NCBI GenBank assembly: GCA_038046585.1
Contig: JBBSVX010000013.1
Location: forward strand, 6,942 to 70,941
Reading direction: 5' to 3'
Length of the DNA stretch: 64,000 bases
Source: an archaeon
Lineage (GTDB): Archaea > Iainarchaeota > Iainarchaeia > Iainarchaeales > JAAZKV01
Shown here: positions 10,207 to 46,542 of the stretch, one piece after another
Numbering within the stretch: position 1 is the stretch's first letter
Layout of the letters: each line of letters starts with the position of its first letter
Position numbers and translations under genes: made by a program
Notes under the pieces: generated by a model
The model's input: only the letters and a program-made list of their open reading frames with translations
What the model was told of the DNA's origin: nothing
Databases searched by the model: none

Positions 10207-11280
10207 TTATCTTGGGAGCCTGTTTTTGTTTTGCTTTTTTTCTCTTTCAAATCTTTTCAACGCATATCCTGCGAATAACTTTACTTTTTTTGGATTTTCT
10301 TTTGCGATTGCCCTAAACCTTTGGTGCTTATCTTTTGCCGCAATGCTAACCATCCCAAGCCAGCCCTTGATTACGTTTATTTTGTAAGGCAAATTTGATT
10401 TGATTATGTCCTTAAGCGTTTCTCTTTTCCAACTGCCTATTGAGAACTGCGGCGCATGCAGCGCGCCAAGCCCAGAAAACAAATATGCTTTGCCGTCCGT
10501 GGCGAAATGCACAGTGACGGGCATTTTGGCCCCGTATAACGGCACAAGTCCGACGCCTAACGCAACATTTATTGGCGGCATGGGAGCGCCTTCCCCTCTA
10601 TGCAATTTGCCAAGCCAATTTTTCATGTCTTCGGTTCCTTTTTTGCTTGAATAAAATTCCCTCCTCCCGCTGTTGCTGTCTTGAGCCACTCGCGTTTTGA
10701 ATTCTTTTGGTATTAGTCTTGCTATGTTTTTTGGCCACCGGTATTTTTCTTGGTACTTTGTTTGGGCGACATTCTGAACGTTTGCCTTTGCACCTGCTGC
10801 TTTTGCTCCAGCAAAGAATGCGATAATTCTTGCTTCCATCTCCCGACCATAAAGCAAATGCTCCCTATCTATTGAGACGTTAACTCTTGGGAGCCCCATT
10901 CTTTTGAGGAGCGCCGCCGTCTCCGCAGGATTTGTGGGAAATAACGCAAGATTTGTTGTGATGCTGACATTTTTTCTCCCAAGGACGCGCACGGCGTATT
11001 GTGACATTTGTACGACTTCTTTATTGAGAAATGGCTCTCCGCCGGCGATGCAAATAAATTTCGAGTTCCCCAAAATTTTCCCCTGTTCTTTAATTTGATC
11101 TATTAGTTTTTTGAATTCTTCAAACTTCATATCGGGGCCCGTGTAATATTCTCTGCCGCGCTGGAAACAGAAGTTACAGTTCATGTTGCAACGGGAAGTC
11201 ACGTCAAAAGTGAAAAGCTTTATAGGAGGAATTTCTTCGCCAAAGGGCGTCTCTGGAATCTTGCTTAAAGCATCAACCAT
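10207..11280 (-). CDS. Radical SAM domain protein of unknown function
   Basis: CNMNCNFC (Cx3Cx2C) cluster near the N-terminus and a GGEPFL SAM-binding motif. The C-terminal 200 aa have no recognised motifs and end in a Lys-rich tail. Confidence 0.8.
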   Translation of the reverse strand: MVDALSKIPETPFGEEIPPIKLFTFDVTSRCNMNCNFCFQRGREYYTGPDMKFEEFKKLIDQIKEQGKILGNSKFICIAGGEPFLNKEVVQMSQYAVRVLGRKNVSITTNLALFPTNPAETAALLKRMGLPRVNVSIDREHLLYGREMEARIIAFFAGAKAAGAKANVQNVAQTKYQEKYRWPKNIARLIPKEFKTRVAQDSNSGRREFYSSKKGTEDMKNWLGKLHRGEGAPMPPINVALGVGLVPLYGAKMPVTVHFATDGKAYLFSGLGALHAPQFSIGSWKRETLKDIIKSNLPYKINVIKGWLGMVSIAAKDKHQRFRAIAKENPKKVKLFAGYALKRFEREKKQNKNRLPR

Positions 11281-11337
11281 ATGAAGAATTATGCGAAAGA
11301 ACTACTTAAGCTTTTTTGAGTATAATTAGAAAGAGGC

Positions 11338-12063
11338 TTATTCTCTTGTCCATCTTTGCATTTCGCGCAAGGCTTTTTCAGCAGTTTCAATTACTAAAAG
11401 TTTTTTGTCAAGATCCTTTACCTGTTTTCCTGCAGCTTCCATCCTAAAATCCTTTAATTCATCAGCGTATTTTGCAACTTTTTTGTCTTTTTTGTAGATG
11501 ATTGAGGTTGAAACTGTTTCAGAGAGCTGTTTTCGATAATCAAGATCTTTCACAAACATTTTCACCATCGGTTTCCATTTTTTGTCCGCTACAAGGTGCG
11601 CAGGAAGTTTTACAATGTCTGCATCTTTTCGGTAATCTGCATCCGAAGCCATTTTTGCCATGTGTTCCCAATAGAGCGGTTCTTTTAGTTTTTTCAACTG
11701 GTGAAACTGGTGGTACATTGATGCTGAAAGGTGGCTCTTTTTCCAGTCGCCAAGCTTTTCCTGATAAAGTTTCTTTTTCTCAACTATCTCGTCAATTTTT
11801 TTTCCTAGTACCATCGATTCAGGATAGGATAATTTCGGCCAGTCTTTTCCCGATTCGTGCGCTTTAATTACGCCGCCCAAGGAAAAATATTTTTCAAGAG
11901 CTGCCCTTCGTTCGCCTTCTTTTGGGGACTTAGGAAATCTTTTCTCAAATTCTACTATTGAGGCGATTACATCAGTCATTCTATCAACTAAAGAAAAGTC
12001 TTTTGTGGTTAAAAAGGATGCTGGTTTTAGATGGAAAATTAGGCTTAGGATGAGGCTTCGCAT
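11338..12063 (-). CDS. Hypothetical protein
   Basis: 241-aa ORF whose start overlaps the end of the 890-aa surface-protein gene; no recognisable motif. An internal Met (MTDVIAS...) is an alternative start. Confidence 0.45.
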   Translation of the reverse strand: MRSLILSLIFHLKPASFLTTKDFSLVDRMTDVIASIVEFEKRFPKSPKEGERRAALEKYFSLGGVIKAHESGKDWPKLSYPESMVLGKKIDEIVEKKKLYQEKLGDWKKSHLSASMYHQFHQLKKLKEPLYWEHMAKMASDADYRKDADIVKLPAHLVADKKWKPMVKMFVKDLDYRKQLSETVSTSIIYKKDKKVAKYADELKDFRMEAAGKQVKDLDKKLLVIETAEKALREMQRWTRE

Positions 12064-14717
12064 CCGAAAGTCGCGTCTTCAATCCCTATCTTGTGAGGAA
12101 TGCCATAATTGGTATTGTAGCTTATTGTGACATCTATTGTCCTTTGTGCGCCCACGTTTGCGCAAGTGTGGGTCGTGTCAATAGTTATTTTCTTTTCATC
12201 CCCCACATCTAAGAAAAAATTTTGTGTGGCGTTCTGATCATCAAATTTTATGTCTGTAATTGTAACTCCTCCGGAAGTGTTGTTCTGTAGGATTATGGTG
12301 TAATTTCCGTCAAGCGTGACCACTCCGTCCATTATCCCTATGGGGCTTGTCTGCATCTTTATTTTTGAAGATCCTTCTGATACGCTTGCGCCCGATTCAA
12401 AAAACCCAGTCATCATCCCGGTTACAAGAAGCGCGACAACGACAATAATTGCCATGAGCACTAAGTATTCTATTGTTCCTTGCGCACCAGGTGCACCCGA
12501 GGCGGGAGGGTTTGCGGGAGGCTTTGTTGGGGGTGATTTTGGAGGATTTTTCTTTGCAGCATTTTGTGCGTTGAACTCATTGAGCTGAAGCATGTATTGT
12601 TCCATTAGTCTTCTGTAAGTAGTTTCGTCCATCTGCCCTTTCATGTATCCTTGCTCAAGAAGCTTCATCTTTAATTTAATTTCCTTGATTTTCTTTTCAC
12701 GTTCGTTTCGCATATTAAAAGTGTAGACCAAGAATCCGAATCCCACAAGAATCAGTATCACTCCAATCCCTATTACGGCCATTACTACCGTGTCGAGTCC
12801 GTCAAGAGAATATTTTACGCTCGGTTTTTTTGACGATGAGGGGAGGGCATTCCATATCACTTTTCCTTCTTCGGGAAACGATTCGCCTTTAGGATCCGCC
12901 ATAGGATAAAATGAATTTATTTTTGCGCCATTGGGAACAATTATTGTCAGCGAACTTGCGCCAAGTGTGCTTTCAACGTTCCAATCCCTAAATGTTACTT
13001 CGTAGCTGTTCCCCATTAAAGGAGTGATTAGCATATCTGTTTGAGTGATAAAATCAAGGATTAGATTTCCGCCTGCAAATGAAGCGAGGCAGGTTGATTT
13101 TTCAGTTGTAAAGAAACCCATTTTTTCAAACATGGCGTCCTGCGCGTAGAGTGTGTAATTGGTGCAATCGAATGAAGCGTACTGTGCAGTGCTGATGCCT
13201 ACATAGGCAAGGCAGGCCTCATTATAGGGGAGCAAAATATTGAGATCCACATCAGCTATTCCTTCTTTGCTGACCTTGAAAGATAGATCGAATTTTGTTG
13301 CGAGCGTCGTATCTATCGAGCACTCTGCGTCGCCTAAGGAAGCATCAAACCTTGCGATAGGGGTTCCCATCGTGCCAAAGTCGTTTTGGTCTACCTCTTT
13401 TTCCACAGTGTACACTACTTCGGCTTTTCCTTCTGGAGCAATGAAGGGTATCACAAACGCGATCACGGGATCATCTTCGATAACGACCATATTGTAGTCG
13501 GAGCGTATTTCGCTTGCAGAAAGGGCGATTTCTTTCGGGATTGTTTCAATGATTTCGACCCCTTCTATCGCATTTTGCGAAGGGTTTGACACTTCAATCG
13601 ATATTGTTGATTGTTTTTGCGCGTTGTCGTCTGAAGAGCGACTTACGACTATCCCTCTCTTGAATTCGAAACTTTTTGTTTCTTCAGAAAATTCTTTTTG
13701 GGAATTCTCGTCTATAGCATCGCCCAGTTTTCCCACTTGGTCCAAAACGTCCTCTTCTTTTGGAGTATAGATAATCTCTTGAGAATAGATTTTCGTCCTT
13801 ATCTCGTCAGGGGAAAAATAGTACTCTCCGATTATTTGCGGCGGGGCAAAAACGGTTCCTGAGGTTGTGACACACACCTTGACTCCGGCCAGATCGCCCT
13901 GCTCGACTGATTTGCATTTGTAATCTCCGTCGGTGACAGACAATATTCTTACAATAATTGCCTGCCCAAAAGATTTTTCGCATTTTATAGCGGAATTTAA
14001 ATCGGCTGCAATACTGCACTTGGTTATCGTTTCAAGGTATGCTTCCGGATCGAATTTGTTCTCTCCCGAGTCGACCATAGCATTCGTATCGTTGATTTTG
14101 CTAGAAGCCGAATTTGTATCTAAAACACAGCCTTGTGAAGTTGTGCAATTCGTTTCCTGGTTTATATCAGAACTCTCGGGCGGATAATATGGATTCATTA
14201 GCTGTCCGTTGCACCAGTTCTCATCGTACCCCGCGAGGTTTTTGGTGATATTGCAGTCAAGTTTTTGGGTTTGAGAACAATCAGTCACTTTGTTAACATT
14301 AGGGCATTCCTTTATTGTGCACCCGTTTTGGTCAACGTATGTATTGCACTCAACCGCAGTTGCGGCGATGGCTTTCCACTGGCACTTGTTGTCAGAGCAG
14401 CCGCAGTAGAGATTGTAATCTACTGCCTTGTAGCAATCCGCGAATTGGCAGGTGGCGAGTGCATCAAACTTTTCATTAGCTCCTCCGCAATTACTGTCAT
14501 AGCAGCCTCCTGTTTTGCACTCAGAATCAAGTTTGCATAAGGCGTAAGTTGACGTTCCGCAGAACGAAGCGTTAGATGGAGCAGTATTTATGCTAGGGGT
14601 TGTGTTTGTATTCAAGTCCGCATCTGTTCCCTTTATAGGACTGTCAAGCGCAAGAACCGAGCCGGCAACTATCGCGACAAACAGAACTGCGAGTAGGACG
14701 AAAAGTGAGTTACTCAT
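12045..14717 (-). CDS. Large Sec-secreted, Cys-rich, membrane-anchored protein with an internal class III signal peptide and a complete pilin-like module fused at its C-terminus
   Basis: N-terminal signal peptide (MSNSLFVLLAVLFVAIVAGSVLA) and a Cys-rich ectodomain. A TM helix (VVMAVIGIGVILILVGFGFLVYTF) is followed by a basic coiled segment and a Pro-rich linker (KKNPPKSPPTKPPANPPASGAPGA). Then comes QGTIEYLVLMAIIVVVAL plus a 145-aa domain homologous to the N-terminal domains of the ORFs at 15693 and 32881. Confidence 0.7.
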   Translation of the reverse strand: MSNSLFVLLAVLFVAIVAGSVLALDSPIKGTDADLNTNTTPSINTAPSNASFCGTSTYALCKLDSECKTGGCYDSNCGGANEKFDALATCQFADCYKAVDYNLYCGCSDNKCQWKAIAATAVECNTYVDQNGCTIKECPNVNKVTDCSQTQKLDCNITKNLAGYDENWCNGQLMNPYYPPESSDINQETNCTTSQGCVLDTNSASSKINDTNAMVDSGENKFDPEAYLETITKCSIAADLNSAIKCEKSFGQAIIVRILSVTDGDYKCKSVEQGDLAGVKVCVTTSGTVFAPPQIIGEYYFSPDEIRTKIYSQEIIYTPKEEDVLDQVGKLGDAIDENSQKEFSEETKSFEFKRGIVVSRSSDDNAQKQSTISIEVSNPSQNAIEGVEIIETIPKEIALSASEIRSDYNMVVIEDDPVIAFVIPFIAPEGKAEVVYTVEKEVDQNDFGTMGTPIARFDASLGDAECSIDTTLATKFDLSFKVSKEGIADVDLNILLPYNEACLAYVGISTAQYASFDCTNYTLYAQDAMFEKMGFFTTEKSTCLASFAGGNLILDFITQTDMLITPLMGNSYEVTFRDWNVESTLGASSLTIIVPNGAKINSFYPMADPKGESFPEEGKVIWNALPSSSKKPSVKYSLDGLDTVVMAVIGIGVILILVGFGFLVYTFNMRNEREKKIKEIKLKMKLLEQGYMKGQMDETTYRRLMEQYMLQLNEFNAQNAAKKNPPKSPPTKPPANPPASGAPGAQGTIEYLVLMAIIVVVALLVTGMMTGFFESGASVSEGSSKIKMQTSPIGIMDGVVTLDGNYTIILQNNTSGGVTITDIKFDDQNATQNFFLDVGDEKKITIDTTHTCANVGAQRTIDVTISYNTNYGIPHKIGIEDATFGCEASS

Positions 14718-14740
14718 GAAACACTATCCGAGAATGTTGT

Positions 14741-14809
14741 ATATATTCCTTTGGAAGAGACAGAATTGCTTTAATTTTACCTTCCAAAAGAGCACCAAAA
14801 GGAATATAT
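14741..14809. promoter_or_regulatory. Divergent promoter region built as an imperfect palindrome carrying two inverted GGAATATAT TATA-like elements
   Basis: ATATATTCCTTTGG (14741-14754) and CCAAAAGGAATATAT (14796-14809) each lie about 24 nt upstream of divergent start codons (14717 on the - strand, 14833 on the + strand). A nested TTCCTTTGGAAG/CTTCCAAAAG inverted repeat lies between them. Confidence 0.45.
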
Positions 14810-14832
14810 CTTCTAAGAAAAATTACTTATTC

Positions 14833-15648
14833 ATGAGCAAACAAATCGGTATCGTTTATATGGTCGCGGGGCTTTCCTCGAGATTTGGGGGAAAGATAAA
14901 GCAGTTCGCGCGCGTTGGCCCTGTGGGCGAAACGCTAATTGAAGTGTCAATGAAACAAGCGGTAGCCGCGGGTTTTACAAAAATAATTTTCATTGTAGGA
15001 GAAAAAACTGAGGCTCCATTTAAGGAAATGTTTGGCACAAGTTATAGTGGAATCCCGATCGCTTATGCAAAACAGGAATTTGATCTGGCAAAAAGAGATA
15101 AGCCTTGGGGCACTGTTGATGCGCTCGTATCAGCAAAAGATGCGATAAATGGACCATTTGTGGTGTGCAATGGGGATGATATCTATGGAGAGAAAGCTTT
15201 CTCGCAGGCGCATGATTTCTTGAGCGCGAACGGAACCGATTGCGTCGCGGTCGGATACGAACTTGGAAAAGTGATTCCTGAGAAGGGAAAAACGAACAGA
15301 GGAATATTCAAGACCGACAGCAAAAATTTTGTCACAAACATGACAGAAGTTTTTGACATTGAAAAAGAAAAATTACACGAAAAGGGTTTGGAAGAAAGCA
15401 CCCTTTGCAGCATGAATCTTTTCGGACTACAACAAGAAGTTATTTGGATGCTTGCGGATAAATTAGGACATTTTAAGACGCAGCATAACGGAGATAGAAA
15501 GGCAGAGTGTCTTTTGCCAGTAGAGTTAAGCAATCTTATCAAGGAAAAAAAGATTTCACTGAGGCTTATCGCCACTGACGATAAGTGGTATGGTGTAACT
15601 AATCCTGAAGACGAGGAAAAGATAAGGCAAGAACTGGCGCAAAATTGA
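14833..15648 (+). CDS. Sugar-phosphate nucleotidyltransferase (NTP_transferase family)
   Basis: Motifs GLSSRFGG, KPWGTVDAL and VCNGDDIY match the nucleotidyl-transferase fold. The start is placed at the internal ATG 14833 (MSKQIG...), because the upstream part of track ORF 14590.. overlaps the convergent large gene and the intergenic promoter. Confidence 0.7.
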   Translation: MSKQIGIVYMVAGLSSRFGGKIKQFARVGPVGETLIEVSMKQAVAAGFTKIIFIVGEKTEAPFKEMFGTSYSGIPIAYAKQEFDLAKRDKPWGTVDALVSAKDAINGPFVVCNGDDIYGEKAFSQAHDFLSANGTDCVAVGYELGKVIPEKGKTNRGIFKTDSKNFVTNMTEVFDIEKEKLHEKGLEESTLCSMNLFGLQQEVIWMLADKLGHFKTQHNGDRKAECLLPVELSNLIKEKKISLRLIATDDKWYGVTNPEDEEKIRQELAQN

Positions 15649-15692
15649 CCTATGCCACAAGATTATTATAGATTGATAGCCCTTACTCCTCC

Positions 15693-17567
15693 ATGAAAAA
15701 CCATTCCGCGCAAGGAACAATAGAATACTTAGTAATCATCGCGGTCGTGGTAGTCATCTCGCTCGTTGTTGTCTCGATGCTTGTCGGATTCACGAACCAA
15801 GGGGAAAACGTTGCAACAGCAAGCTCACAAATATCAACAATGACCTCGCCAATAGCAATCGTTGATTCAGAATCAACACTCGACGGAAACATCTTTTTAG
15901 GATTCAAAAACAACACAGGAGAAACAATCACAATAACAGAAGTACTCGTAGGCGACGAATCACTACCAAACATCAACCAAACAATTACACAAGGCGCCCC
16001 CGCAAACATCGTAATCAACACCACAAAAAACTGCACACCCGGCACCACCATCACCACAACAATAACAACAAACTACACAACATCAACAGGCCTAACAAAA
16101 ACACAAAAACTAGAAAACATCCAAATCAACTGCAGCGACATAAACCTAAACGAAGGCATACTAGAGCAAACACAAGGCGGAACTCCCCCAACAGGGCCGG
16201 GAATTGATTTACAAAACGGATTAATCGCACACTACAAGATGAATGAAGACGCGATAGATACAACAGTTTCAGATAGCACAGGAAACAACGATGGAGTGCT
16301 AGTCAGAAATTTCGACTTAATATCAAGCACAAACTTAATGGCAACTTCAAAAATAAATGGCGCGCTAAGCTTTGATGGAAGCAGCGATTACATTGATACC
16401 GGCGCCCAACCGATTGGCGCAGGAAATAATCCTTTCTCAATTTCGTGCTGGTTTAAGACCACAAAACCTGACGGGGAAGAATATATGTGGGCAATAGGAG
16501 GAGACTTTTTCAGCGCCGACAACACTTATGCGACAGCAGGGGTCTCTTATGATGAAGATGCAGTGGGGATATTAATCTCAGGCAACTGGTTTGCGCGTGC
16601 TTACGCTTATGGAATCCGAGATGGGAAGTACCACCATTTTGTTTTTACGCATGATGGAAGTCAGGGAACTTTATGGCTGGATGACGTGAACGTGGGCTAT
16701 GGAAACACATCTTCACTGAATCTAGGAACGGCTAATCTACTTATTGGAAAAAATGCTACTTGGCCAACTTGGGATGGATCACTCGATGATTTTAGAGTAT
16801 ATAGCACAGCCCTTGGTCCAAGCGATATCGCAGCGCTATATAATTCAGGCGCAGGGACTGAAAGCGAAAGCGGCGCGCTTGGAACAAATCTTGTTGCGCA
16901 CTACAAGATGAATGACAATGCGGCAAGCACAACGGTTGTCGACAGCAGGGGAGATTATAACGGGACATCTCAAAGAGATACAAACATTTTGATTTCTTCT
17001 AAGATTAACGGTTCATTCAGTTTCAACGGAATCGGCGAATATGATCCAGATATAACTGCGGACTATATCGAAGCCGGGACCCCAAACGGGGACCTAAATA
17101 TAACTGGAGACAAACTTTCAGTATCTGCCTGGGTAAAAAGATCAACAGAAGACAGATATGATTGGATAGTCGGAAAAATGGGCTCAGGCGCAGGCTCTTG
17201 GTGGATGGACATTCAAGCATCCCACCTCGGAAATTTTGTAGACTTTGCAATAGACACTGACAGCGGACCAGGACTTGGCGGAGGAACAACGGACATTGCT
17301 TTACCTAATGATGGCACATGGCACCACGTCGTAGGAGTTTATGACGGAACCAATGTAATTGTATACGTGGACAATGCCGCATCCACCCCAATACCAACTA
17401 CAGGGAACATTGTTCCCAGAGAATATTCAACAAAAATTGGCTGGGAAGATGGATGGGACTCGCAAACATTCAAGGGAAGCATGGATGATCTTCGAATATA
17501 CAACAAAGCATTAAGTACAGAAGAAATTGCAGCAATCTATAACGACGGAAACGGAACAGAAAACTGA
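15693..17567 (+). CDS. Pilin-like adhesin: class III (type IV prepilin-like) signal peptide plus conserved pilin-like domain plus Thr-rich linker plus two LamG/concanavalin-A-like lectin domains
   Basis: MKNHSA|QGTIEYLVIIAVVVVI, with Q+1/E+5 as in EppA-type DUF361 prepilins. Two Laminin_G_3-like repeats (about 16206-16863 and 16875-17564) carry the 'W...K...HH.V..DG...LW.DDV' pattern. A TTATTATA box lies about 25 nt upstream. Confidence 0.8.
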   Translation: MKNHSAQGTIEYLVIIAVVVVISLVVVSMLVGFTNQGENVATASSQISTMTSPIAIVDSESTLDGNIFLGFKNNTGETITITEVLVGDESLPNINQTITQGAPANIVINTTKNCTPGTTITTTITTNYTTSTGLTKTQKLENIQINCSDINLNEGILEQTQGGTPPTGPGIDLQNGLIAHYKMNEDAIDTTVSDSTGNNDGVLVRNFDLISSTNLMATSKINGALSFDGSSDYIDTGAQPIGAGNNPFSISCWFKTTKPDGEEYMWAIGGDFFSADNTYATAGVSYDEDAVGILISGNWFARAYAYGIRDGKYHHFVFTHDGSQGTLWLDDVNVGYGNTSSLNLGTANLLIGKNATWPTWDGSLDDFRVYSTALGPSDIAALYNSGAGTESESGALGTNLVAHYKMNDNAASTTVVDSRGDYNGTSQRDTNILISSKINGSFSFNGIGEYDPDITADYIEAGTPNGDLNITGDKLSVSAWVKRSTEDRYDWIVGKMGSGAGSWWMDIQASHLGNFVDFAIDTDSGPGLGGGTTDIALPNDGTWHHVVGVYDGTNVIVYVDNAASTPIPTTGNIVPREYSTKIGWEDGWDSQTFKGSMDDLRIYNKALSTEEIAAIYNDGNGTEN

Positions 17568-19850: not shown

Positions 19851-22800
19851 TTGGCGGAAAATGAGCCAATTTTCATATTGCGCACATATAGTATATATAA
19901 TATAGAGAATTTTAGGGTTTTTTGGTCTTCTTTGGTGGACGTTGTGGGCTTTAACGAATTTGTTCAAAAAATCATCAATAAGGCTAAAAGCGTTTACTTC
20001 TTTTTCGAAGACAAATGGTATTCGGCGCTTGACCGAATCGACAAATACATTCCAATTTACAAAATAGTGGATCCAATCGACAAGGTCATTCCAAGCTTTG
20101 TGCTTTTCCTTCTCCTGCTACTTTTCTTACTTTTGTTGATGGGGTACCTCGCCAGGTTTTACGCGCCCTACGAAATCACTTTCCTTACTTACGATTCGAA
20201 GACAAGTAATTTCCTCCCGGGAGTAAAACTTAGCGGAGACATAGATGGCGATCCTTTTGATGGAGTAACCGACAAGAACGGACTTTCAAAAGTAACTGTA
20301 GAAGGGGAGGGGCGTAATTTTTTCGAGGCAGTGGCAAATATTTTCTTTCCTAGCAGCGAATATCCTCCGGCAAAAGTCTCTGCTGAAAAAATAGGGTATG
20401 TTTCAATCAAGGATAAAAACATAGAATTTGATTCTAAAGAATACAAGCTTCTTCTCCAACCAGCCCCTGAAGAAGATGTTCCCCAGTACAGTGATTTTGC
20501 GAATGTAAAACTAATTGATTCCACTACAAACGCAGCAATAGTTGATCAGAGCGGACAAGCTTATGTTAAGTTCAGCTGCAAAAACATTTCAAATTTCACT
20601 CCAAAAAGCGTGAGAGACAACGCTGATGGAAAAGTTGACGGAATTTTTAAGCTAACGGAAAACGCCTGCGATTTTGAAGTAACTAAAGCTTATTCCCCAG
20701 GATACGAAAGCCTAAGTATTACAACTTCGGTGAAAGGAGGAGACACAACAGAAATAGAAATGGATAAGGCCGAGACGGACGATACAGGGACTGCGAAGGT
20801 AAGGCTATACGAAAAAGGATCATCACCTGTAAAATATGTTGCAGGATCGAAAGTAGTATTTACAGGAGTAAATGAAACGCAAGAAGGAACAAGCGACTCG
20901 ACAGGATGGGTAAGAAAAGAAGGGATGAAAGTTGGAACATACACCATAACAGTAAAAGATTTGAATTATTATGAAATACTTCCCTCGGACAATGTAAAAA
21001 TAACAATCAAGGCAGGAGACACAAATGAAATAGAAATTGGGCTTACAAAAGTTAATCCGCAGGATATGAGAGTGGTTTACTTTAGAGTGATTGATTCAAA
21101 CAGCAGGACCGCTATTGCAAGCGCAACGGTTGATCTCATAACTCTTTACTACGATGCAAACAGAGGCTGCTACGCCGCCGACTCAAATAGAGACGGAGTG
21201 ATATATGAATCAAGCAACCCTACAATGACTGATTCAAACGGACTTTACAAAAAAGCAGCATTCACAATCAGAAGCGAAGGATATCTTGTAGCAGTAGTGC
21301 GAAAAGAAGGGTACATTTACAAGGTTTTTAAGCCAAAACTCTTTGATGTGAATTCGGGGCCCGAAACGGTAGAACTTAGTTTTGCAACAGAACAAAACAG
21401 CGGGAACGCAAAAATAATTGTTTCATCTGATTTGAATAGATATCTTGTCGGAGCGTCAACATATATTTACACTGATCTCAATTTGGGAACAGGAACATGT
21501 TCTAGCATCACAAACATAAAAGTCAACAAGGACGGAATATTAACTAACAGCGCGGGAGAAGCGCTTTACAAATATTTGCCAAGAGGAACTTACTCTGCTT
21601 CCGCTTGGTTTGATGACACGTTTTCAGGAATAACTCCAAAGCAGGATCTTGACATAAACCAGACAATTGTTTTTAATATCAGGATGAGCGTGAACGTTGC
21701 AAATCTTAGAGTAACTCTTAAGGATGCAATAACAGGAAGCATAATATCCTCCTCGAATGCAAGCGTAAAAGTATACACTGCCAGTGACGCAGAGTTCGAC
21801 ACACTTTACCTTTCAGAGACTCTAGCATATTCTAGCGGAAAGTTTGTAAGCAACGGCGGATATGCAAAGAAAAGCAGATTAGTGATTATGGCCGATTCGA
21901 ATGACTATGCGCCAAACAGCATTTATATTGACGGACCAATAACCCCTTTAGTTACAGGAAACAACGATTTCAATATGGCGCTTTACTCTGTCGCATCGCT
22001 TTATGATGTCAACATATTTTACATAAACGTCTTCACTACTAGTGACAATCTTTCAGGAACATCAAGCGTTGCAGGCCTAATGAGAGGAAACGATTATTAC
22101 GCGAAATTTGATGCAGTCATAGGAAAGAATCTCACATATCAAGAACTTCTTTCAATGATAAGAGTTGAAGGCCCTGTCGCGATAAAGAATGTCAAGCTTG
22201 TGAACATGTTGCCTTACAATTCAAAATCGCAATTGTACACTAAAAACACTTCGGCGATGGATTCACTGATAAGCCCTCACGATGACAACTACTACTTCCC
22301 GCCCACCTCGTCATACGTTGAGGCTGACAAGAGCTTAGTCCAGCTTGGAATTGATTGGACTTTGGTTAACGGAGTTTTGCCAAGAGGCACATACACTTTC
22401 GCGGTGAGATTCACAGTTGACTCAAATTCCTCCGACAACGACACGATGACGCTCAAATACAGAGCGAAGACAAAGCACTCTACTGGAACTGCTGAGACGC
22501 CTCTTGGATCCACAACTATCGCGCTCAACAAGGCAATCAAGACAGGCGTATTCTTCGTTGTCGAATACAAGGGAGTCAGCGAAATAATTGACAGCGGCGA
22601 CGCAAGCGACATTATGCTCCTTTCCTCAACCATAAGAAACGATATCAAAGTAACTCTCCAGAACAACACTTCCTCTGCGCTTTCTGGCGGAACATACAAC
22701 GTTTACTCTTATGACGGGCTGAAGAACACCTTCACTGAAAGCACAGGCGGAAGTGGATATGTTCACTTCAATTCAATTGATGGAAACAAAAAAAGTAATC

Positions 22801-24812
22801 TCTCAAACAGCCTCTCAATACCAACCGAACAAGGTTACACTACTACTCTAGCAGTTTACCCTGAAAAATTCAATTCAAGCAACTACATTGTTCTTTACGC
22901 TACATTTGGTTCTACTACTTACTCTACTTTCCTCGATGTTAAAGCATCAGGAAAACAACTCAACTTGCTTGCAGAATTTTTGGCTGGAGTGAACAACCAG
23001 AACTTCGATGGAGAAATATTCCCTAAAGATTCTGCCGATGTTGGAAGCCCTTTGGCACTTTCAGCAGTAACTCTTGCAACATACCGTTCATGCATAATAG
23101 ATTCCAATCACAGAGTATACAGCGAAACTCTTCCTTCTGCAAAAATGGCAGGGGACTTTTTCTCAACAATTGTAGACAACGTATATGAGTACAATGTTGA
23201 TTGCATAGTTGTCGACCTTGAAGCGGATGATGGAACATACAGCTATGAACCGCTCCACGAAGAAATAAAAGCTGGATCTGGCGGAACGTTTGACCCCACT
23301 CTTTCCTGCATCGACGTATCAACCCCCACGGGAGAAAAAATTATTTATCTTGAGTGGGATAAGAACCAAAAAATTGTTGTTACAAATAACTGCGCAAAAG
23401 ATGTTGTAGTAAAACTTGAAACAGGACTTGTTTGCACACCCGCTAGCGGAGTAACTTGCAGCGCGGATGCCACAATAAACGTTGGACAGGACAGAAATTA
23501 CACAATCACAGGAAAAAACATAGAATATGACCCCACAGCAGTAAAGCCAAACTTCACCGACATATTGGGATACTTCCCCGTGTTCGTTAAAGGAAGGTAC
23601 TATAGCGAAGGCAACAAGAAATTTGTTCTCGTTGATAAAGAAGAGGTTCACGTATCAAACTCGAACCAGTGCTTCGCAATATCAAAGGACATTTTTGATT
23701 TCACTGAATCAACTTCGCCGACAATTAACTTTGATGTTAACAGCTTTTGCCAGTACAATTTGATAGGCGACTTCTATGTCCCTCAGGCAAGCCTTTCCTC
23801 TTTTGGATATGACATCAACCTGGCCGTAGCAAAGCCTACCGCCAGCGTAACTTTCACCCCTTCACTAATGGTCACAGGAAACGGATACACCACTACAACT
23901 TATGATATAAATCTCTCAAGTTGGTGGGCTGCAATGATGATAGTGCCGAACAAAGCAACTTCGACTCTTGACACAACCAACCCGCTCTTGCCTTTCAGGA
24001 AATACTATAACATCAGCTTCAATGCGCTCGCATATGATCTGCCAGGGGATGCAAACAAATTACAGTTCACTTGGATAGATAAAAACAGCGAATACTTTAA
24101 CGAAAAGAAACCTTACGGGGCAGAGATAGATGGAAATGTCATTGTTACTTACACTAATGGGACAACTTACTCATTCATCCCTTCATATAATTTCTCAATA
24201 AAGAACGGCACAGTATCTTGCGTAAGCATTTCAACACCGCAATCAGGAGAGTACTGCGAACTTGGCGCTGATGTCGGCGAGAATAACCCTGACGGAGGAA
24301 AACTCGCATTCGGATTATTCTACATGAACATCCCAAGAGGAGACATAGCTAAAGTAGATTTCAACATTATAGGAGACTCAAACACTGAAAATCTCGAAAT
24401 AAAAATTAAGCCTTACACTAATTTCACTGAAACTAGAACATCCGTTACGCAGACAACAGGCGCATCAACTTACTCAATACCCCTAACGCCTTACTCCATT
24501 TATCCACTCGAAGATGTGGTGTACTTGCTTAAGCACATAAGCCAATTGAACACGTTCTCCGATTCGGCATTCTTAGGAGTAAATAATCCTACAACATACC
24601 TTGTAACGGACAATGCAAATGTTCTCGCTTGGGTTGAAGCGGGTTACCTCAAGGCAGCATATGTCGGAACTGATATCTCGCAGTATAACGACAAGTCTCT
24701 TGAATTCAAGCTTGTTAGAACATTCGGTCAAGGAATAGGGTACGGAATAGTGAACGTTGATGATTATGTTGCCACTGAATCTAGCAATGGCAAGGATATT
24801 AGCGGAGATTAA
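19851..24812 (+). CDS. Giant surface protein A (1653 aa): conserved cytoplasmic N-terminal 'KWY' motif, signal-anchor TM, then many carboxypeptidase-regulatory/transthyretin-like beta-sandwich repeats
   Basis: Paralogue of the 2216-aa ORF at 52423..59073. Their N-termini align (VYF..E.KWY..L.RI..Y.PI.K..D.ID.V.PSF.LFL) before a poly-Leu TM helix. Repeats of the type TDSNGLYK...GTYTI recur. The first 80 nt of the track ORF contain a TATATATAATATAG box and no in-frame ATG, so the true start is probably TTG/GTG at about 19932-19944. Confidence 0.8.
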   Translation: MAENEPIFILRTYSIYNIENFRVFWSSLVDVVGFNEFVQKIINKAKSVYFFFEDKWYSALDRIDKYIPIYKIVDPIDKVIPSFVLFLLLLLFLLLLMGYLARFYAPYEITFLTYDSKTSNFLPGVKLSGDIDGDPFDGVTDKNGLSKVTVEGEGRNFFEAVANIFFPSSEYPPAKVSAEKIGYVSIKDKNIEFDSKEYKLLLQPAPEEDVPQYSDFANVKLIDSTTNAAIVDQSGQAYVKFSCKNISNFTPKSVRDNADGKVDGIFKLTENACDFEVTKAYSPGYESLSITTSVKGGDTTEIEMDKAETDDTGTAKVRLYEKGSSPVKYVAGSKVVFTGVNETQEGTSDSTGWVRKEGMKVGTYTITVKDLNYYEILPSDNVKITIKAGDTNEIEIGLTKVNPQDMRVVYFRVIDSNSRTAIASATVDLITLYYDANRGCYAADSNRDGVIYESSNPTMTDSNGLYKKAAFTIRSEGYLVAVVRKEGYIYKVFKPKLFDVNSGPETVELSFATEQNSGNAKIIVSSDLNRYLVGASTYIYTDLNLGTGTCSSITNIKVNKDGILTNSAGEALYKYLPRGTYSASAWFDDTFSGITPKQDLDINQTIVFNIRMSVNVANLRVTLKDAITGSIISSSNASVKVYTASDAEFDTLYLSETLAYSSGKFVSNGGYAKKSRLVIMADSNDYAPNSIYIDGPITPLVTGNNDFNMALYSVASLYDVNIFYINVFTTSDNLSGTSSVAGLMRGNDYYAKFDAVIGKNLTYQELLSMIRVEGPVAIKNVKLVNMLPYNSKSQLYTKNTSAMDSLISPHDDNYYFPPTSSYVEADKSLVQLGIDWTLVNGVLPRGTYTFAVRFTVDSNSSDNDTMTLKYRAKTKHSTGTAETPLGSTTIALNKAIKTGVFFVVEYKGVSEIIDSGDASDIMLLSSTIRNDIKVTLQNNTSSALSGGTYNVYSYDGLKNTFTESTGGSGYVHFNSIDGNKKSNLSNSLSIPTEQGYTTTLAVYPEKFNSSNYIVLYATFGSTTYSTFLDVKASGKQLNLLAEFLAGVNNQNFDGEIFPKDSADVGSPLALSAVTLATYRSCIIDSNHRVYSETLPSAKMAGDFFSTIVDNVYEYNVDCIVVDLEADDGTYSYEPLHEEIKAGSGGTFDPTLSCIDVSTPTGEKIIYLEWDKNQKIVVTNNCAKDVVVKLETGLVCTPASGVTCSADATINVGQDRNYTITGKNIEYDPTAVKPNFTDILGYFPVFVKGRYYSEGNKKFVLVDKEEVHVSNSNQCFAISKDIFDFTESTSPTINFDVNSFCQYNLIGDFYVPQASLSSFGYDINLAVAKPTASVTFTPSLMVTGNGYTTTTYDINLSSWWAAMMIVPNKATSTLDTTNPLLPFRKYYNISFNALAYDLPGDANKLQFTWIDKNSEYFNEKKPYGAEIDGNVIVTYTNGTTYSFIPSYNFSIKNGTVSCVSISTPQSGEYCELGADVGENNPDGGKLAFGLFYMNIPRGDIAKVDFNIIGDSNTENLEIKIKPYTNFTETRTSVTQTTGASTYSIPLTPYSIYPLEDVVYLLKHISQLNTFSDSAFLGVNNPTTYLVTDNANVLAWVEAGYLKAAYVGTDISQYNDKSLEFKLVRTFGQGIGYGIVNVDDYVATESSNGKDISGD

Positions 24813-32880: not shown

Positions 32881-34539
32881 ATGCATTTGAGAAAGAAAAA
32901 TGCGCAAGGCACAATAGAATATCTTGTGATAATTGCGGTAGTGGTGGTCATAGGACTTATTGTCGTATCCATGCTAGCAAATTTTACTGGCCAAGGTTCG
33001 CAGATAACATCCGACAGCGTAAAAATCGGTTCCGCTTCGGCACCAATAAGCGTGACAAACTCGGCAGTTGACATCAGCGGAAACGGACTCCTAACAATAG
33101 GCAACAATACTGGGGAAAATGTGACCATAACAAAAGTCAAGACGGGGGACCTAGAGACTTCTTTCAACCAAACAATTCCTTCAGGAAGCCAGGATACATT
33201 CTCGCTTAGCAATCTCGGCCTCAACTGCGCCTGCGAATCGACAACAGCCGCCTCAAAAGAATGCGAATTCACCATATACACCACATCGCAATACGGAATT
33301 GTGAAGAGCGAAACAATCAAGGTAATCATTGATTGCGTGCAGAGCGCAAAAGCGAGTGATTCAAGAAGCCCGGTAGTGCTTGCAGTGCTTCCAGACATCA
33401 ATACTTGCGCGGGCTTCGGATTCACCGACGGAACGATAAGTTGTCTCACAAGAAACGGACCTGAGTGCACATCTTATGACGTGAATAATTGCTACAATGA
33501 TGGAAATATAAATGAAATTTACGACCCAAGCCTGAATGGCACTGATTATGTGATAGCCAATGATTGCTTCCAAGTGCCTACAAAGTTCTGTTCGGGTGGG
33601 GCAAGCAGCTGCGTTGGAAAAACCATTTCCATACTCTCAGGGCCCTTTCAGGGAAGTTATTCCATAAGCGAATCACTGAAATACACCAGCACATCAGGCC
33701 ACCCCGCGGGCTCCGATTATTATGACACTTACTCAGGCTACCCCGCATATTATTTTAGCGCTGATTCGCTTGATATGACTCCTAATTACTTAAGCACTAA
33801 CTGGCCCTACAAGCTTTACGGGCCAAACACCGGGGTCCCACGACCTGTTTGTGGAAACGGAGTAAGAGACGGAAACGAAGAATGTGACGGCTCTGATTTT
33901 GCATTTAATACCTGCACAATGATGGGAAAAGGATATGTTGGAGGAACGCTCGCATGCAGTTCGGAGTGCACATATAATCACGCAAGCGACAGCAATAATG
34001 TATACTGCATACCCCCTCTGACAAATTGCACTCCAAGCAATCCTTGCGAAATATTGTCCTGCGAACATCTGGCTCACATAGGCGACAGCGGCACGAGCAT
34101 GACTGGAAGCTATTACTTAAACAGAGACATTGATTGTAACAAGGGCGGCGGAAATATTGGCGCGTATGATGGTTTTGAATTTACAAGAAGATTCACAGGC
34201 ACTCTCGACGGGCGCAATCATACCATATACAACCTATTTCTGCAAAGCAGCGTGCTAGGCACAATATGGTGGACGGACATGCGCATGGGCTTATTCAGGT
34301 ACGTCGATACGGGAGGACTTGTGAAAGATTTGAATCTCGTAGACTCGAACGTCAACGGGTCCAGCAGGGTCGGATCTGTCTCCGGCGAATTTAGAGGCAC
34401 TCTCAATAACGTCCATGTTACGGGGCGCGTCTACGGCTACAGCTCGAGCTATTCTGTAGGGGGACTTGTGGGCAGGGACAACGGCGGAACTTTCATCAAT
34501 TCAACTTTCACAGGCCCCATAGAGTATTATACTTCATGA
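32881..34539 (+). CDS. Pilin-like adhesin: class III signal peptide, conserved pilin-like domain, Cys-rich myxo-type repeat and GLUG-motif beta-helix region
   Basis: MHLRKKNA|QGTIEYLVIIAVVVVIGLIVVSML. The pilin-like domain (SAPISVTNSAVDISGNGLLTIGNNTGENVTITKV) is homologous to 15693 and to the C-terminus of 12045. It carries CGNGVRDGNEECDGSDF and repeated GGLVG/GGLV motifs. The opposite-strand ORF 32853..33470 is an antisense artefact. Confidence 0.75.
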   Translation: MHLRKKNAQGTIEYLVIIAVVVVIGLIVVSMLANFTGQGSQITSDSVKIGSASAPISVTNSAVDISGNGLLTIGNNTGENVTITKVKTGDLETSFNQTIPSGSQDTFSLSNLGLNCACESTTAASKECEFTIYTTSQYGIVKSETIKVIIDCVQSAKASDSRSPVVLAVLPDINTCAGFGFTDGTISCLTRNGPECTSYDVNNCYNDGNINEIYDPSLNGTDYVIANDCFQVPTKFCSGGASSCVGKTISILSGPFQGSYSISESLKYTSTSGHPAGSDYYDTYSGYPAYYFSADSLDMTPNYLSTNWPYKLYGPNTGVPRPVCGNGVRDGNEECDGSDFAFNTCTMMGKGYVGGTLACSSECTYNHASDSNNVYCIPPLTNCTPSNPCEILSCEHLAHIGDSGTSMTGSYYLNRDIDCNKGGGNIGAYDGFEFTRRFTGTLDGRNHTIYNLFLQSSVLGTIWWTDMRMGLFRYVDTGGLVKDLNLVDSNVNGSSRVGSVSGEFRGTLNNVHVTGRVYGYSSSYSVGGLVGRDNGGTFINSTFTGPIEYYTS

Positions 34540-46008: not shown

Positions 46009-46542
46009 TCAGAGTAGTTCTGAGAAATCTTTTACTTTCCCCATCTTCTTTGTTCCATAATACCATATCAGAAGTATTATCGCGCTCATCAAGAACCAGG
46101 TAAGTGTGTGAACCATATTGGCATCAAACCCGGCTTTTGCGGCAACTAGTACAAGCATTACTCGGGGGATGTTTGCAAGCAATAGTATTAGCGTTCCTGC
46201 AATGAACAACATTACTTTTTTTACAAGTTCTGGCTTCTTGAGCGAGAATATTACTGCCGCCAAGATTGATGCACTGGCTAGACCTGTGCATGAATTTGAG
46301 ATTGTATAAGTGTGCCCATTTATTTGAACAATGCTGCCAGATACTGCCATTCCTAATGCATCGCCGGCAATCTTTGCTATGGCTTGAGTAAGAAATGAAA
46401 GATCAGCCAATTCAATAAGGATTGTGAGTGCGAAATATATCCCGAAGAACTTTGCTAAGAACCACAAGAGCTTTTCCTTTTTGTTTTGTGTACTTTGAGG
46501 GCTTGAAATTGCGCGTTTAGTTTGCTTTTTTGCCTTTTTCAT
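46009..46542 (-). CDS. Short exosortase/archaeosortase-family membrane protein (putative)
   Basis: 177 aa, 4-5 TM, with the family's candidate active-site motifs: Cys in SCTGLAS and Asn/Arg in ANIPRV about 42 residues apart (compare CSG...ANxxRV in exosortases/ArtA). Confidence 0.45.
   Translation of the reverse strand: MKKAKKQTKRAISSPQSTQNKKEKLLWFLAKFFGIYFALTILIELADLSFLTQAIAKIAGDALGMAVSGSIVQINGHTYTISNSCTGLASASILAAVIFSLKKPELVKKVMLFIAGTLILLLANIPRVMLVLVAAKAGFDANMVHTLTWFLMSAIILLIWYYGTKKMGKVKDFSELL

What the first reader, a model, noticed from the sequence alone, without database searches (positions are those of the whole stretch)
12045..12790. Complete prepilin-like module with internal class III signal peptide fused to the C-terminus of a Sec-secreted membrane protein (possible prepilin-peptidase-processed polyprotein)
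The 890-aa ORF has an ordinary Sec signal peptide, an about 610-aa Cys-rich ectodomain, and one TM helix. After that helix come a cytoplasmic basic/coiled stretch and a Pro-rich linker (KKNPPKSPPTKPPANPPASGAPGA). The linker is followed immediately by A|QGTIEYLVLMAIIVVVAL and a 145-aa domain. This final segment matches, residue for residue, what the two stand-alone pilin-like genes (15693, 32881) carry at their N-termini. A positively charged cytoplasmic region followed by a Q+1/E+5 hydrophobic helix is exactly what an archaeal prepilin peptidase (EppA/PibD/FlaK) recognises. Cleavage would release a mature pilin-like subunit from a larger membrane protein. I know of no described archaeal pilin made this way. 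The alternative reading is a recent fusion or sequencing indel joining two genes.
Basis: partly seen in the sequence, partly recalled or inferred. Interest (0 to 1): 0.8.

Follow-up and report, generated by a model that had tools for sequence, protein, structure and literature searches.

The report
Pilin gene fused behind a membrane-protein gene
In one uncultured groundwater archaeon, a complete pilus-subunit gene has become fused in frame to the end of an unrelated surface-protein gene, which buries the pilin's normally N-terminal cleavage signal 745 residues inside a larger protein; the fusion is real and so far unique, but nobody has tested whether the pilin is still cut free.

Summary
ORF 12045-14717 (-) encodes 890 aa: signal peptide, Cys-rich ectodomain, TM helix, a net-basic tail, a Pro-rich linker, then A|QGTIEYLVLMAIIVVVAL plus a 118-aa domain.

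- **Pilin identity.** The last 145 aa belong to a large DPANN family of class III signal-peptide (type IV pilin-like) proteins. They are 37% and 31% identical to the two stand-alone genes. The AF2 model (pLDDT 90.5) is a helix plus beta-sandwich, and archaeal pilins are the top PDB hits.
- **Two genes fused.** All homologues of the upstream part stop 8-20 aa after the motif MDETTYRRLMEQYxLQLNE. The motif starts within residue 61 in all 167 family proteins held that carry it.
- **Route to fusion.** Two relatives have the two gene types adjacent on one strand. In one they are in frame, 27 nt apart.
- **Not an artefact.** The exact 890-aa product is called on 4 contigs of several length classes (NCBI MAG, ENA Hainich groundwater). 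No start codon lies in the 36 codons before Q746.
- **Processing.** Topology puts the site on the cytoplasmic face and the motif is intact, so cleavage is plausible. It is untested; the leader lacks nearby K/R and no peptidase gene lies in the window.

Verdict: a real, lineage-specific fusion, a new variant of a known kind. Interest is moderate.

The parts
12045..14717 (-). Fused ORF, 890 aa. Identical to NCBI MEK6958629.1, 'MAG: hypothetical protein AABW59_01145 [archaeon]'.
14646..14717 (-). aa 1-24, N-terminal hydrophobic signal-peptide-like segment (MSNSLFVLLAVLFVAIVAGSVLA).
   Evidence: Hydropathy. The Sec assignment is inferred; no signal-peptide predictor was available.
14343..14645 (-). 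aa ~25-125, Cys-rich N-terminal ectodomain module. It also occurs on its own in other proteins.
   Evidence: hits such as P0072, P0079 and P0087 match only query residues ~5-125.
13338..14048 (-). aa ~224-460, middle ectodomain region shared with the large homologues P0001-P0005.
12798..13337 (-). aa ~461-640, conserved ectodomain with 4 conserved Cys. It also exists as stand-alone ~290-aa proteins.
   Evidence: AF2 gives a mostly beta ectodomain with a few short helices, pLDDT 84.
12720..12788 (-). aa 644-666, TM1 (stop-transfer helix).
12573..12719 (-). aa 667-715, conserved net-basic helical tail, inferred to be cytoplasmic, ending in ...KMKLLEQGYMKGQMDETTYRRLMEQYMLQLNEF. Homologues end 8-20 aa after this motif.
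12483..12572 (-). aa 716-745, linker NAQNAAKKNPPKSPPTKPPANPPASGAPGA. Homologue similarity runs to about aa 723-732, so the fusion joint lies within about aa 733-745. There is no in-frame ATG, GTG or TTG here.
12502..12526 (.). 12-nt tandem duplication (2.1 copies, 92% match) inside the linker, encoding (K)PPA-(N)PPA.
12402..12482 (-). aa 746-772, class III-type mature N-terminus QGTIEYLVLMAIIVVVALLVTGMMTGF (Q+1, E+5, hydrophobic helix). The predicted cleavage is between A745 and Q746 (nt 12483|12482).
12048..12401 (-). aa 773-890, pilin globular domain: the rest of the long helix plus a 7-strand beta-sandwich with 2 conserved Cys and 4 N-X-S/T sequons.
   Evidence: dN/dS is 0.07 against a 78%-identical relative.
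15693..17567 (+). Stand-alone paralogue: MKNHSA|QGTIEYL pilin module followed by two LamG domains (624 aa).
32881..34539 (+). Stand-alone paralogue: MHLRKKNA|QGTIEYL pilin module followed by an M26-N-like region (552 aa).

Best explanation
This is a genuine, lineage-specific, in-frame fusion of two genes that are separate in every other genome examined.

- **Gene A** belongs to an uncharacterised DPANN (Iainarchaeum-like) family of exported single-pass membrane proteins. They consist of a signal peptide, an ectodomain with conserved Cys, one TM helix and a conserved helical tail ending in MDETTYRRLMEQYxLQLNE plus a short K/P-rich end.
- **Gene B** is a complete small class III signal-peptide protein (archaeal type IV pilin-like, UPF0333/PF04021 type).

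The stop codon of A, the intergenic spacer and the start codon with the short leader of B have been replaced by a Pro-rich stretch (PPANPPASGAPGA).

Proposed mechanism:
1. The N-terminal signal peptide exports the ectodomain.
2. TM1 stops transfer.
3. The net-basic 79-aa tail stays in the cytoplasm.
4. The pilin helix inserts N-in/C-out as the second arm of a helical hairpin. This puts A745|Q746 at the cytoplasmic membrane face, where class III signal peptidases (A24, GxGD aspartyl proteases of the EppA/PibD type) cut.
5. Cleavage would yield a 745-aa type I membrane protein and a 145-aa mature pilin starting QGTIEYL, in 1:1 amounts.

What is shown: the fusion, its reproducibility across assemblies, the homology and fold of both halves, and the hydropathy-based topology. 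What is inferred: the membrane insertion order, the existence of the peptidase in this genome, and the cleavage itself.

My confidence that the fusion is real is about 0.9. My confidence that it is cleaved as proposed is about 0.45.
For: **The two halves are separate genes elsewhere**
- Exhaustive phmmer against 1.84 billion representatives gave 1258 hits, and none of the 150 listed covers both halves. Ectodomain homologues P0001-P0009 (28-44% identity) end at query residues 718-732. In every listed hit to residues ~745-887 that match begins within the first 55 residues of the protein.
- The homologue sequences end ...LNELEAEFVKKKI*...SKKKAPAPPTKKM* and ...SQKPKQVTPPKSNN*.
- All 24 loci from the genome and metagenome scans are unfused.
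- Among 167 family proteins carrying the motif, its largest start position is 61.

**A route to fusion exists**
- L024 has the family-A gene ending in TAA, then 27 nt in frame, then ATG-NSRKG|QGAIEYL.
- L012 (Ca. Iainarchaeum sp.) has a 321-aa A homologue, 103 nt of spacer, and then a 165-aa pilin of the same subfamily.

**The fusion is not an artefact**
- The exact 890-aa sequence is in NCBI and ENA. It is carried on 4 contigs in length classes of 10-20 kb, 50-200 kb and 0.2-1 Mb.
- ENA contig ERZ1292640 Hain_H43_02um_R1_8 is 100% identical over window 11045-15717, junction included. That assembly is broken at different places from the window.
- A Logan contig from run ERR3858135 is 100% identical over 11206-12397.
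- There is no in-frame start codon in the 36 codons upstream of Q746, so one base error cannot explain the fusion.

**The pilin module is intact and constrained**
- AQGTIEYLV is identical to the family consensus.
- AF2 gives pLDDT 90.5, a helix at model residues 13-56 and a 7-strand sandwich.
- The top Foldseek PDB hits are the S. acidocaldarius Aap pilin 8q30, the Pyrobaculum pilins 8fk7 and 6w8u, and the archaellin 9eq7.
- dN/dS is 0.07 against a 78%-identical fragment from another metagenome.

**Topology fits**
- There are three hydrophobic segments and a net +7 tail between TM1 and the site.

**The site context is within the family range**
- Position -1 is A in 127 of 167 members. Position -2 is G in 12 of 167. 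In 25 of 167 the nearest K/R is more than 6 residues away or absent.
- EppA substrates are characterised by Q at +1 and an acidic residue at +5 (PMC4187195).
Against: - The arrangement is a singleton. No fused orthologue exists to show that selection maintains it, and the closest relative (L002) is cut off at aa 810.
- The residues before the site lack the basic residue found within 6 positions in 85% of family members. Pro at -3 is rare (3 of 167).
- The longest archaeal leader found in the papers searched is 26 aa and is called 'unusually long' there (PMC12448462). Here the leader would be 745 aa with its own TM helix, and nothing shows that a peptidase tolerates that.
- No A24 peptidase, TFF ATPase or platform gene lies in the 64-kb window.
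- Pilin genes directly downstream of family-A genes occur in only 2 of 22 loci. That is about what chance gives if roughly 4% of genes are such pilins, so there is no evidence that A and B work together.
- Assembly coverage is low: the contig names say cov_6 and cov_7.
Confidence: 0.5

Rival explanations
1. The fusion is real but the site is not cut. The product is a two-TM hairpin membrane protein with both large domains outside. The pilin module can no longer enter a filament, so it is either a surface-displayed domain or dead weight from a recent neutral or slightly deleterious fusion.
For: - It is a singleton among 167 family members and all loci examined.
- There is no K/R within 13 residues before the site, and Pro sits at -3.
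- FlaK-type enzymes need basic residues at -2 and -3 (PMC4187195).
- A 745-aa TM-tethered leader has no precedent in the papers searched.
Against: - The processing and assembly motif (A-1, Q+1, G+2, E+5) is perfectly intact.
- The globular domain is under strong purifying selection relative to a 73%-nt-identical relative. It is unknown, however, whether that relative is fused.
- Family members with no basic residue in the leader exist, for example MANG|, MVDSA| and MNAHA|.
- PibD-type enzymes are described as permissive.
Confidence: 0.3
2. The pilin is made separately by internal translation initiation at M705 or M709 inside the long ORF. This would give a prepilin with a 37-41-aa leader that is then processed normally. 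In that case the fusion is only apparent at the level of the ORF.
For: - In-frame ATG codons lie 37 and 41 codons upstream of Q746.
- Type IVb-like and some archaeal leaders reach about 26-30 aa (for archaea; my own knowledge for bacterial type IVb).
Against: - Reading, I saw no Shine-Dalgarno-like sequence and no TATA-like element at a sensible distance from these ATGs. This rests on inspection only; no archaeal promoter tool was available.
- The region is the most conserved coding part of gene A (MDETTYRRLMEQY), so its sequence is set by that function.
- Such a leader would still be longer than any documented in archaea.
Confidence: 0.1
3. It is an assembly or sequencing artefact: two adjacent genes were wrongly joined by an indel, a collapsed repeat or a chimeric join.
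For: - Coverage is low (about 6-7x).
- The linker holds a short 12-nt tandem duplication.
- A 26-nt stretch is shared with the gene at 15693.
- The Logan contig stops 85 nt short of the junction.
Against: - The same 890-aa product appears on 4 contigs of different lengths from NCBI and ENA.
- The sequence is 100% identical across the junction in an assembly with different contig breaks.
- No start-codon or stop-codon remnant appears in frame, so several coordinated changes would be needed.
- The 26-nt shared stretch lies inside the motif, downstream of the joint, so it cannot create the upstream linker.
Confidence: 0.05

Closest known systems
EppA-type archaeal type IV pilins and class III signal-peptide proteins (Pfam PF04021 Class_IIIsignal / UPF0333; M. 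maripaludis EpdA-C and MMP1685)
   Same: - Small residue at -1, Gln at +1, acidic residue at +5 and a ~20-aa hydrophobic helix.
- A small beta-sandwich head, with archaeal pilins as the top structural matches.
- Properties of EppA substrates are taken from PMC4187195.
   Different: - The signal is at residue 746 instead of the N-terminus.
- There is no start Met and no short basic leader.
- The upstream 'leader' contains an exported ectodomain and a TM helix.
- The Pfam score is below the gathering threshold, as it also is for the stand-alone paralogues.
Modular type IV pilins: a pilin module with extra domains, such as the window's own LamG pilin at 15693, the GLUG and LamG pilin-like proteins of DPANN MAGs, and Streptococcus sanguinis PilB/PilC (the last from my own knowledge)
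   Same: A pilin module is combined with unrelated extracellular domains in one polypeptide.
   Different: In all of these the extra modules follow the pilin module, so the class III signal stays N-terminal. Here the extra protein precedes it, which changes the biogenesis problem entirely.
Prepilins and pre-archaellins with long leaders: the Oxyplasma meridianum ArlB 26-aa leader, and bacterial type IVb pilins with ~15-30 aa (the latter from my own knowledge)
   Same: They have an extended cytoplasmic N-terminal extension before the cleavage site.
   Different: A 26-aa leader is already called 'unusually long' in archaea (PMC12448462). Here the extension is 745 aa, is membrane-anchored and is mostly extracellular.
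Adjacent unfused gene pairs in relatives: L024 (metagenome contig Ga0265595_1020918) and L012 (Ca. Iainarchaeum sp. STD2_255)
   Same: The same two gene families sit in the same order on the same strand. In L024 they are in the same frame, 27 nt apart.
   Different: The stop codon, the spacer and the pilin's own ATG plus K/R-containing leader are all present there. The pilin in L024 is a larger one, and the A genes are only 28-49% identical to the window's.
Polyproteins cut at internal signal sequences by membrane signal peptidases, such as flavivirus structural polyproteins (own knowledge; an analogy of mechanism only)
   Same: An internal hydrophobic segment re-initiates translocation, and a membrane protease separates the two products.
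   Different: The protease family and the face of the membrane differ: type I signal peptidase cuts on the outside, A24 peptidases on the cytoplasmic side. No homology is implied.

Membership tests
Archaeal class III signal-peptide / type IV pilin-like proteins (PF04021, UPF0333, EppA-type) | Cleavage motif: small residue at -1, Q at +1, acidic residue at +5, followed by a ~20-residue hydrophobic helix. | tested here: met
   The site reads A745|QGTIEYLVLMAIIVVVALLVTGMM. It is identical to the family consensus over AQGTIEYLV.
Archaeal class III signal-peptide / type IV pilin-like proteins (PF04021, UPF0333, EppA-type) | Pfam PF04021 match at or above the gathering score. | tested here: inconclusive
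   The score is 18.2 bits against a cut-off of 23.7 (E = 0.0024). The stand-alone paralogues score 14.0 and 21.8 bits, so the 27-position model is weak for this whole subfamily.
Archaeal class III signal-peptide / type IV pilin-like proteins (PF04021, UPF0333, EppA-type) | The signal lies at the N-terminus behind a short, usually basic leader. | tested here: not met
   The motif starts at residue 746. The maximum start in 167 family members is 61. The nearest K/R is 14 residues upstream.
Archaeal class III signal-peptide / type IV pilin-like proteins (PF04021, UPF0333, EppA-type) | Pilin fold: a long N-terminal alpha-helix plus a beta-rich head. | tested here: met
   AF2 gives pLDDT 90.5 with a helix and a 7-strand sandwich. 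The top Foldseek PDB hits are 8q30, 8fk7, 6w8u and 9eq7. TM-scores are low (0.30-0.40) because the helix orientation differs.
Archaeal class III signal-peptide / type IV pilin-like proteins (PF04021, UPF0333, EppA-type) | Homology of the whole module to bona fide N-terminal family members. | tested here: met
   The best listed phmmer E-values for pilin-module hits are about 1e-21 to 1e-20 over residues ~745-887. Identity is 25-37% across 38 members.
Archaeal class III signal-peptide / type IV pilin-like proteins (PF04021, UPF0333, EppA-type) | Cleavage by an A24 class III signal peptidase and incorporation into a filament. | not testable with these tools
   This needs biochemistry or proteomics.
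Archaeal class III signal-peptide / type IV pilin-like proteins (PF04021, UPF0333, EppA-type) | An A24 peptidase and TFF assembly genes in the same genome. | tested here: inconclusive
   None appears among the ~45 largest ORFs of the 64-kb window (Pfam).
Unnamed DPANN membrane-protein family with the MDETTYRRLMEQY tail (P0001-P0009, L003-L026) | Signal peptide, ectodomain with conserved Cys, single TM helix and a conserved helical tail. | tested here: met
   Alignments A3 and A6 show 3-4 invariant Cys and an invariant tail motif. The AF2 model has pLDDT 84.
Unnamed DPANN membrane-protein family with the MDETTYRRLMEQY tail (P0001-P0009, L003-L026) | The protein ends 8-20 residues after the ...LQLNE motif. 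| tested here: not met
   The window protein continues for 175 more residues. In the family alignment the nine homologues end 8-20 residues after the motif. In all the homologous loci where the gene end is on the contig, the gene likewise stops shortly after the motif.

The most novel reading that the evidence does not exclude
This would be the first natural case of an internal class III signal peptide. A type IV prepilin peptidase (a GxGD aspartyl protease) would process a membrane polyprotein, cutting on the cytoplasmic face between the two arms of a TM hairpin. That would release a mature pilin from a Sec-exported surface protein. It would show that the enzyme reads only the local [A/G]|Q..E-helix motif, whatever lies upstream, and it would couple production of a pilin and a membrane protein 1:1.
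Probability: 0.4. Interest if true: 0.75.

Novelty: new variant of a known kind. Interest (0 to 1): 0.5.

Why it matters
Class III signal peptides are defined, predicted (FlaFind-type tools, PF04021) and studied only as N-terminal elements with leaders of a few to about 30 residues.

- **If cleavage occurs.** A naturally occurring substrate with the site 745 residues in, behind an exported domain and a TM helix, would be a ready-made test of what archaeal prepilin peptidases actually recognise. It would also be the first polyprotein-type route to a pilin.
- **If cleavage fails.** The case would still show how pilin genes in fast-evolving DPANN surface-protein repertoires are captured by neighbouring genes.
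- **Practical point.** N-terminus-restricted pilin predictors miss such modules.

The caveat is that this is one lineage-specific event with no experimental support.

Tried and rejected
- **The search for homologous proteins with single sequences.** Two queries (the full protein, and aa 690-890) returned nothing. The word index evidently fails on these sequences. The exhaustive search and a profile query worked.
- **Search for a fused orthologue.**
  - The genome contigs and metagenome-contig scans with the family-A alignment gave 24 loci, all unfused and none more than 46% identical over the ectodomain and tail.
  - The closest relative of the pilin half (L002, 78% aa identity) is a 1.2-kb contig that starts at aa 810.
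  - The Logan contig from ERR3858135 stops 85 nt short of the junction.
- **Functional linkage of the two gene families.** I rejected it as unproven. A pilin sits directly downstream in only 2 of 22 loci, close to chance expectation.
- **SHOCT-like identity of the cytoplasmic tail.** I considered this from memory, but Pfam gives no such hit at E <= 1, so I dropped it.
- **Frame +2 upstream of the motif.** It reads (V)HLVRKEQ*, reminiscent of the MHLRKKNA leader of gene 32881. The codons overlap the AQG codons, so no single indel can restore a separate gene. I rejected it as coincidence (reading).
- **Fold of the ectodomain.** There are only weak matches (TM-score about 0.3) to ribophorin I/Ost1 and LppM, which are not informative.
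- **An apparent 13-nt difference between the window and ENA contig_114.** It turned out to be a run of N in that scaffold, not a variant.
- **Extending beyond the window to look for an A24 peptidase.** One look-up failed. The other added 9 kb with no peptidase.

Full report
**1. What is in the sequence**

The minus-strand ORF 12045-14717 encodes 890 aa. A 19-residue Kyte-Doolittle scan finds three clearly hydrophobic segments:
- an N-terminal signal-like segment, aa 1-24;
- TM1, about aa 644-666;
- a third helix at about aa 749-772.

Between TM1 and the third helix lies a net-basic stretch, aa 664-745, with 15 K+R against 8 D+E. It ends in NAQNAAKKNPPKSPPTKPPANPPASGAPGA and is followed directly by QGTIEYLVLMAIIVVVALLVTGMM and a 118-aa domain.

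A six-frame scan finds the QGTIEYLV motif only three times in the window. Two copies sit 6 and 8 residues behind start codons (genes 15693-17567 and 32881-34539). The third is internal at residue 746. Its nearest in-frame Met is 37 residues upstream, and the 36 codons before Q746 contain no ATG, GTG or TTG.

**2. The C-terminal module is a complete pilin-like protein**

- It aligns end to end with the N-terminal ~150 residues of the two stand-alone genes, at 37% and 31% identity. This includes the globular part and two conserved Cys.
- At the DNA level only 26 nt around the motif are identical. This is old paralogy, not a recent copy.
- In the exhaustive search against 1.84 billion representatives, residues ~745-887 matched more than a hundred of the 150 listed proteins. 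In every listed hit that match begins within the first 55 residues of the protein.
- An AlphaFold2 model built on 39 family sequences has pLDDT 90.5. It shows one long helix followed by a seven-strand beta-sandwich.
- The best PDB matches are archaeal type IV pilins (S. acidocaldarius Aap 8q30; Pyrobaculum 8fk7 and 6w8u), an archaellin (9eq7) and FlaF. TM-scores are low because the helix orientation differs.
- Pfam's 27-position Class_IIIsignal model scores 18.2 bits, below its 23.7 cut-off. The two stand-alone genes are also below it.
- Against a 78%-identical fragment from another metagenome (L002), the last 80 codons give dN/dS = 0.07 with saturated dS. The module is a functional gene product, not a decaying remnant.

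**3. The upstream 730 residues are a different protein family that normally ends there**

- The best homologues (P0001-P0009, 28-44% identity) match query residues up to 718-732 and then stop.
- Their C-termini read ...MDETTYRRLMEQYQLQLNELEAEFVKKKI*...SELSKKKAPAPPTKKM* and ...LFSQKPKQVTPPKSNN*. The PPTK and PPKS motifs of the window's linker are therefore part of the ancestral tail.
- The joint lies in roughly aa 733-745 (PPANPPASGAPGA). That region also holds a 12-nt tandem duplication.
- Scans of GTDB species genomes and JGI metagenomes with the family alignment returned 24 loci. Those that carry an organism name are Candidatus Iainarchaeum; the rest are labelled only as uncultured archaeon MAGs. 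In every locus the homologue terminates shortly after the motif.
- An AF2 model of aa 456-745 (pLDDT 84) shows a mostly beta ectodomain with a few short helices, a TM helix continuing into a long helix, and a second helix. Fold matches (ribophorin I/Ost1, LppM) are weak and not informative.
- The family has no Pfam or NCBIfam model.

**4. How the fusion could arise**

In two divergent relatives a pilin gene follows the family-A gene on the same strand.
- In L012 (Ca. Iainarchaeum sp. STD2_255) there is a 103-nt spacer and then a 165-aa pilin of the same subfamily.
- In L024 the TAA stop is followed by 27 nt in the same frame and then ATG AAT TCT AGA AAA GGA CAG GGC GCA ATA GAA TAC. Loss of one stop codon there would already create an analogous fusion.

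Only 2 of 22 loci show this adjacency. Such pilin genes make up roughly 4% of genes in these genomes, so this is close to chance. I therefore do not claim that the two families function together.

**5. Real or artefact?**

- The exact 890-aa sequence is deposited as MEK6958629.1 (MAG archaeon, AABW59_01145) and also occurs in ENA assemblies.
- It is carried on 4 contigs falling in three length classes.
- The ENA contig Hain_H43_02um_R1_8 (226,588 nt, Hainich groundwater) is 100% identical to the window across 11045-15717. That assembly breaks at different positions from the window: contig_8 would end at about window position 39,650, and contig_114 ends at 53,602. The assemblies are therefore not copies of one another.
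- A Logan contig from run ERR3858135 is also 100% identical, but it stops 85 nt short of the joint.
- No start-codon or stop-codon remnant is left, so one sequencing error cannot explain the ORF.
- I put the artefact reading at about 5%. Coverage is low (about 6-7x), so read-level confirmation is still worthwhile.

**6. Is it unique?**

Its start position never exceeds residue 61, and most of the longer 'leaders' look like over-extended start calls. No homologue among the 150 listed covers both halves.

Literature searches found no description of an internal class III signal peptide. A 26-residue archaellin leader is described as unusually long (PMC12448462). These searches cover open-access text only.

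**7. Mechanism**

The topology implied by the three hydrophobic segments and the net-basic tail is ectodomain out, tail in, pilin head out. This puts A745|Q746 at the cytoplasmic face, where A24 peptidases act. That location is established knowledge for PilD, FlaK and PibD.

The motif fits EppA-type substrates, which have Q at +1 and an acidic residue at +5 (PMC4187195).

Within the family:
- position -1 is A in 127 of 167 members;
- position -2 is K/R in 54%, but G occurs in 12 of 167;
- 85% have a K/R within six residues, yet leaders with none exist (MANG|, MVDSA|, MNAHA|).

The fused site (…PPASGAPGA|QG, nearest K at -14, P at -3) is therefore atypical but inside the observed range. The Pro-rich ~30-residue linker should leave the site accessible.

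I consider cleavage the single most likely outcome (about 0.45). The main rival is an uncleaved two-TM hairpin protein (about 0.3). Internal initiation at M705 or M709 is a minor possibility (about 0.1). No A24 peptidase or TFF assembly gene lies in the window, and the rest of the genome could not be examined.

**8. Verdict**

Its 'fusion of two genes' alternative is in fact the origin of the architecture, and the 'sequencing indel' reading is largely excluded. The polyprotein-processing idea remains a reasonable but untested inference. This is a new variant (architecture) of a known kind of protein, seen once in one DPANN lineage. Interest is moderate, and it would be high if cleavage were demonstrated.

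Noticed in passing
window 12483-13352 (-) and loci L003-L026: The upstream half defines an uncharacterised DPANN (Iainarchaeum-like) membrane-protein family. It has a signal peptide, a ~190-aa ectodomain with 4 conserved Cys, a TM helix and an almost invariant tail, KMKxLExxYLxGxMDETTYRRLMEQYxLQLNE. It often occurs as stand-alone ~290-aa proteins. There is no Pfam or NCBIfam model, and the only fold resemblance is a weak one to ribophorin I/Ost1 and LppM.
   Followed up: partly
L024 1887-1919 (metagenome contig Ga0265595_1020918): A family-A gene and a class III signal-peptide gene are separated by only 27 nt and lie in the same frame (TAA ... ATG AAT TCT AGA AAA GGA CAG GGC). A single stop-codon change there would create the same kind of fusion.
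   Followed up: yes
window 30515-32830 (+): The Cdc6/Orc1 gene is interrupted by an intein with a LAGLIDADG homing-endonuclease domain (Intein_splicing 5e-19, LAGLIDADG_3 4e-13). It lies right next to the pilin-like gene at 32881.
   Followed up: no
window 46009-46542 (-): A small (177 aa) exosortase/archaeosortase-family protein passes the exo_archaeo signature model. Its best matches are archaeosortase D and pacearchaeosortase, both below their cut-offs. It sits next to the CDP-archaeol synthase gene. This suggests a second surface-protein anchoring route in the same organism.
   Followed up: no
window 15693-17567 (+): This stand-alone pilin-like protein carries two LamG domains. Its C-terminal part matches the NCBIfam model for TafC, a subunit of haloarchaeal Tat-fimbriae (E = 3e-15, far below the equivalog cut-off).
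   Followed up: no
window 19851-24812 (+), 52423-59073 (-), 50371-52320 (-), 59197-61944 (+): There are several very large predicted surface proteins (1653, 2216, 649 and 915 aa) with only faint CarboxypepD_reg, MG3 or MopE-motif hits. The window is unusually rich in giant, fast-evolving envelope proteins, as is typical for DPANN.
   Followed up: no
window ~54140; L029 18947-18959: The ENA scaffold Hain_H43_02um_R1_114 has a run of 10 N here, where the window sequence is continuous. As a result the 2216-aa ORF is called as 1654 + 168 aa in that assembly. This is a scaffolding gap, not a biological variant.
   Followed up: yes
window 11338-12063 (-): The gene downstream of the fused ORF probably starts at the internal Met (MTDVIASIVEF..., 213 aa, as NCBI annotates it and as in the relative L002, 83% identity). 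If so, it does not overlap the fused ORF's stop codon. It has no family assignment.
   Followed up: partly
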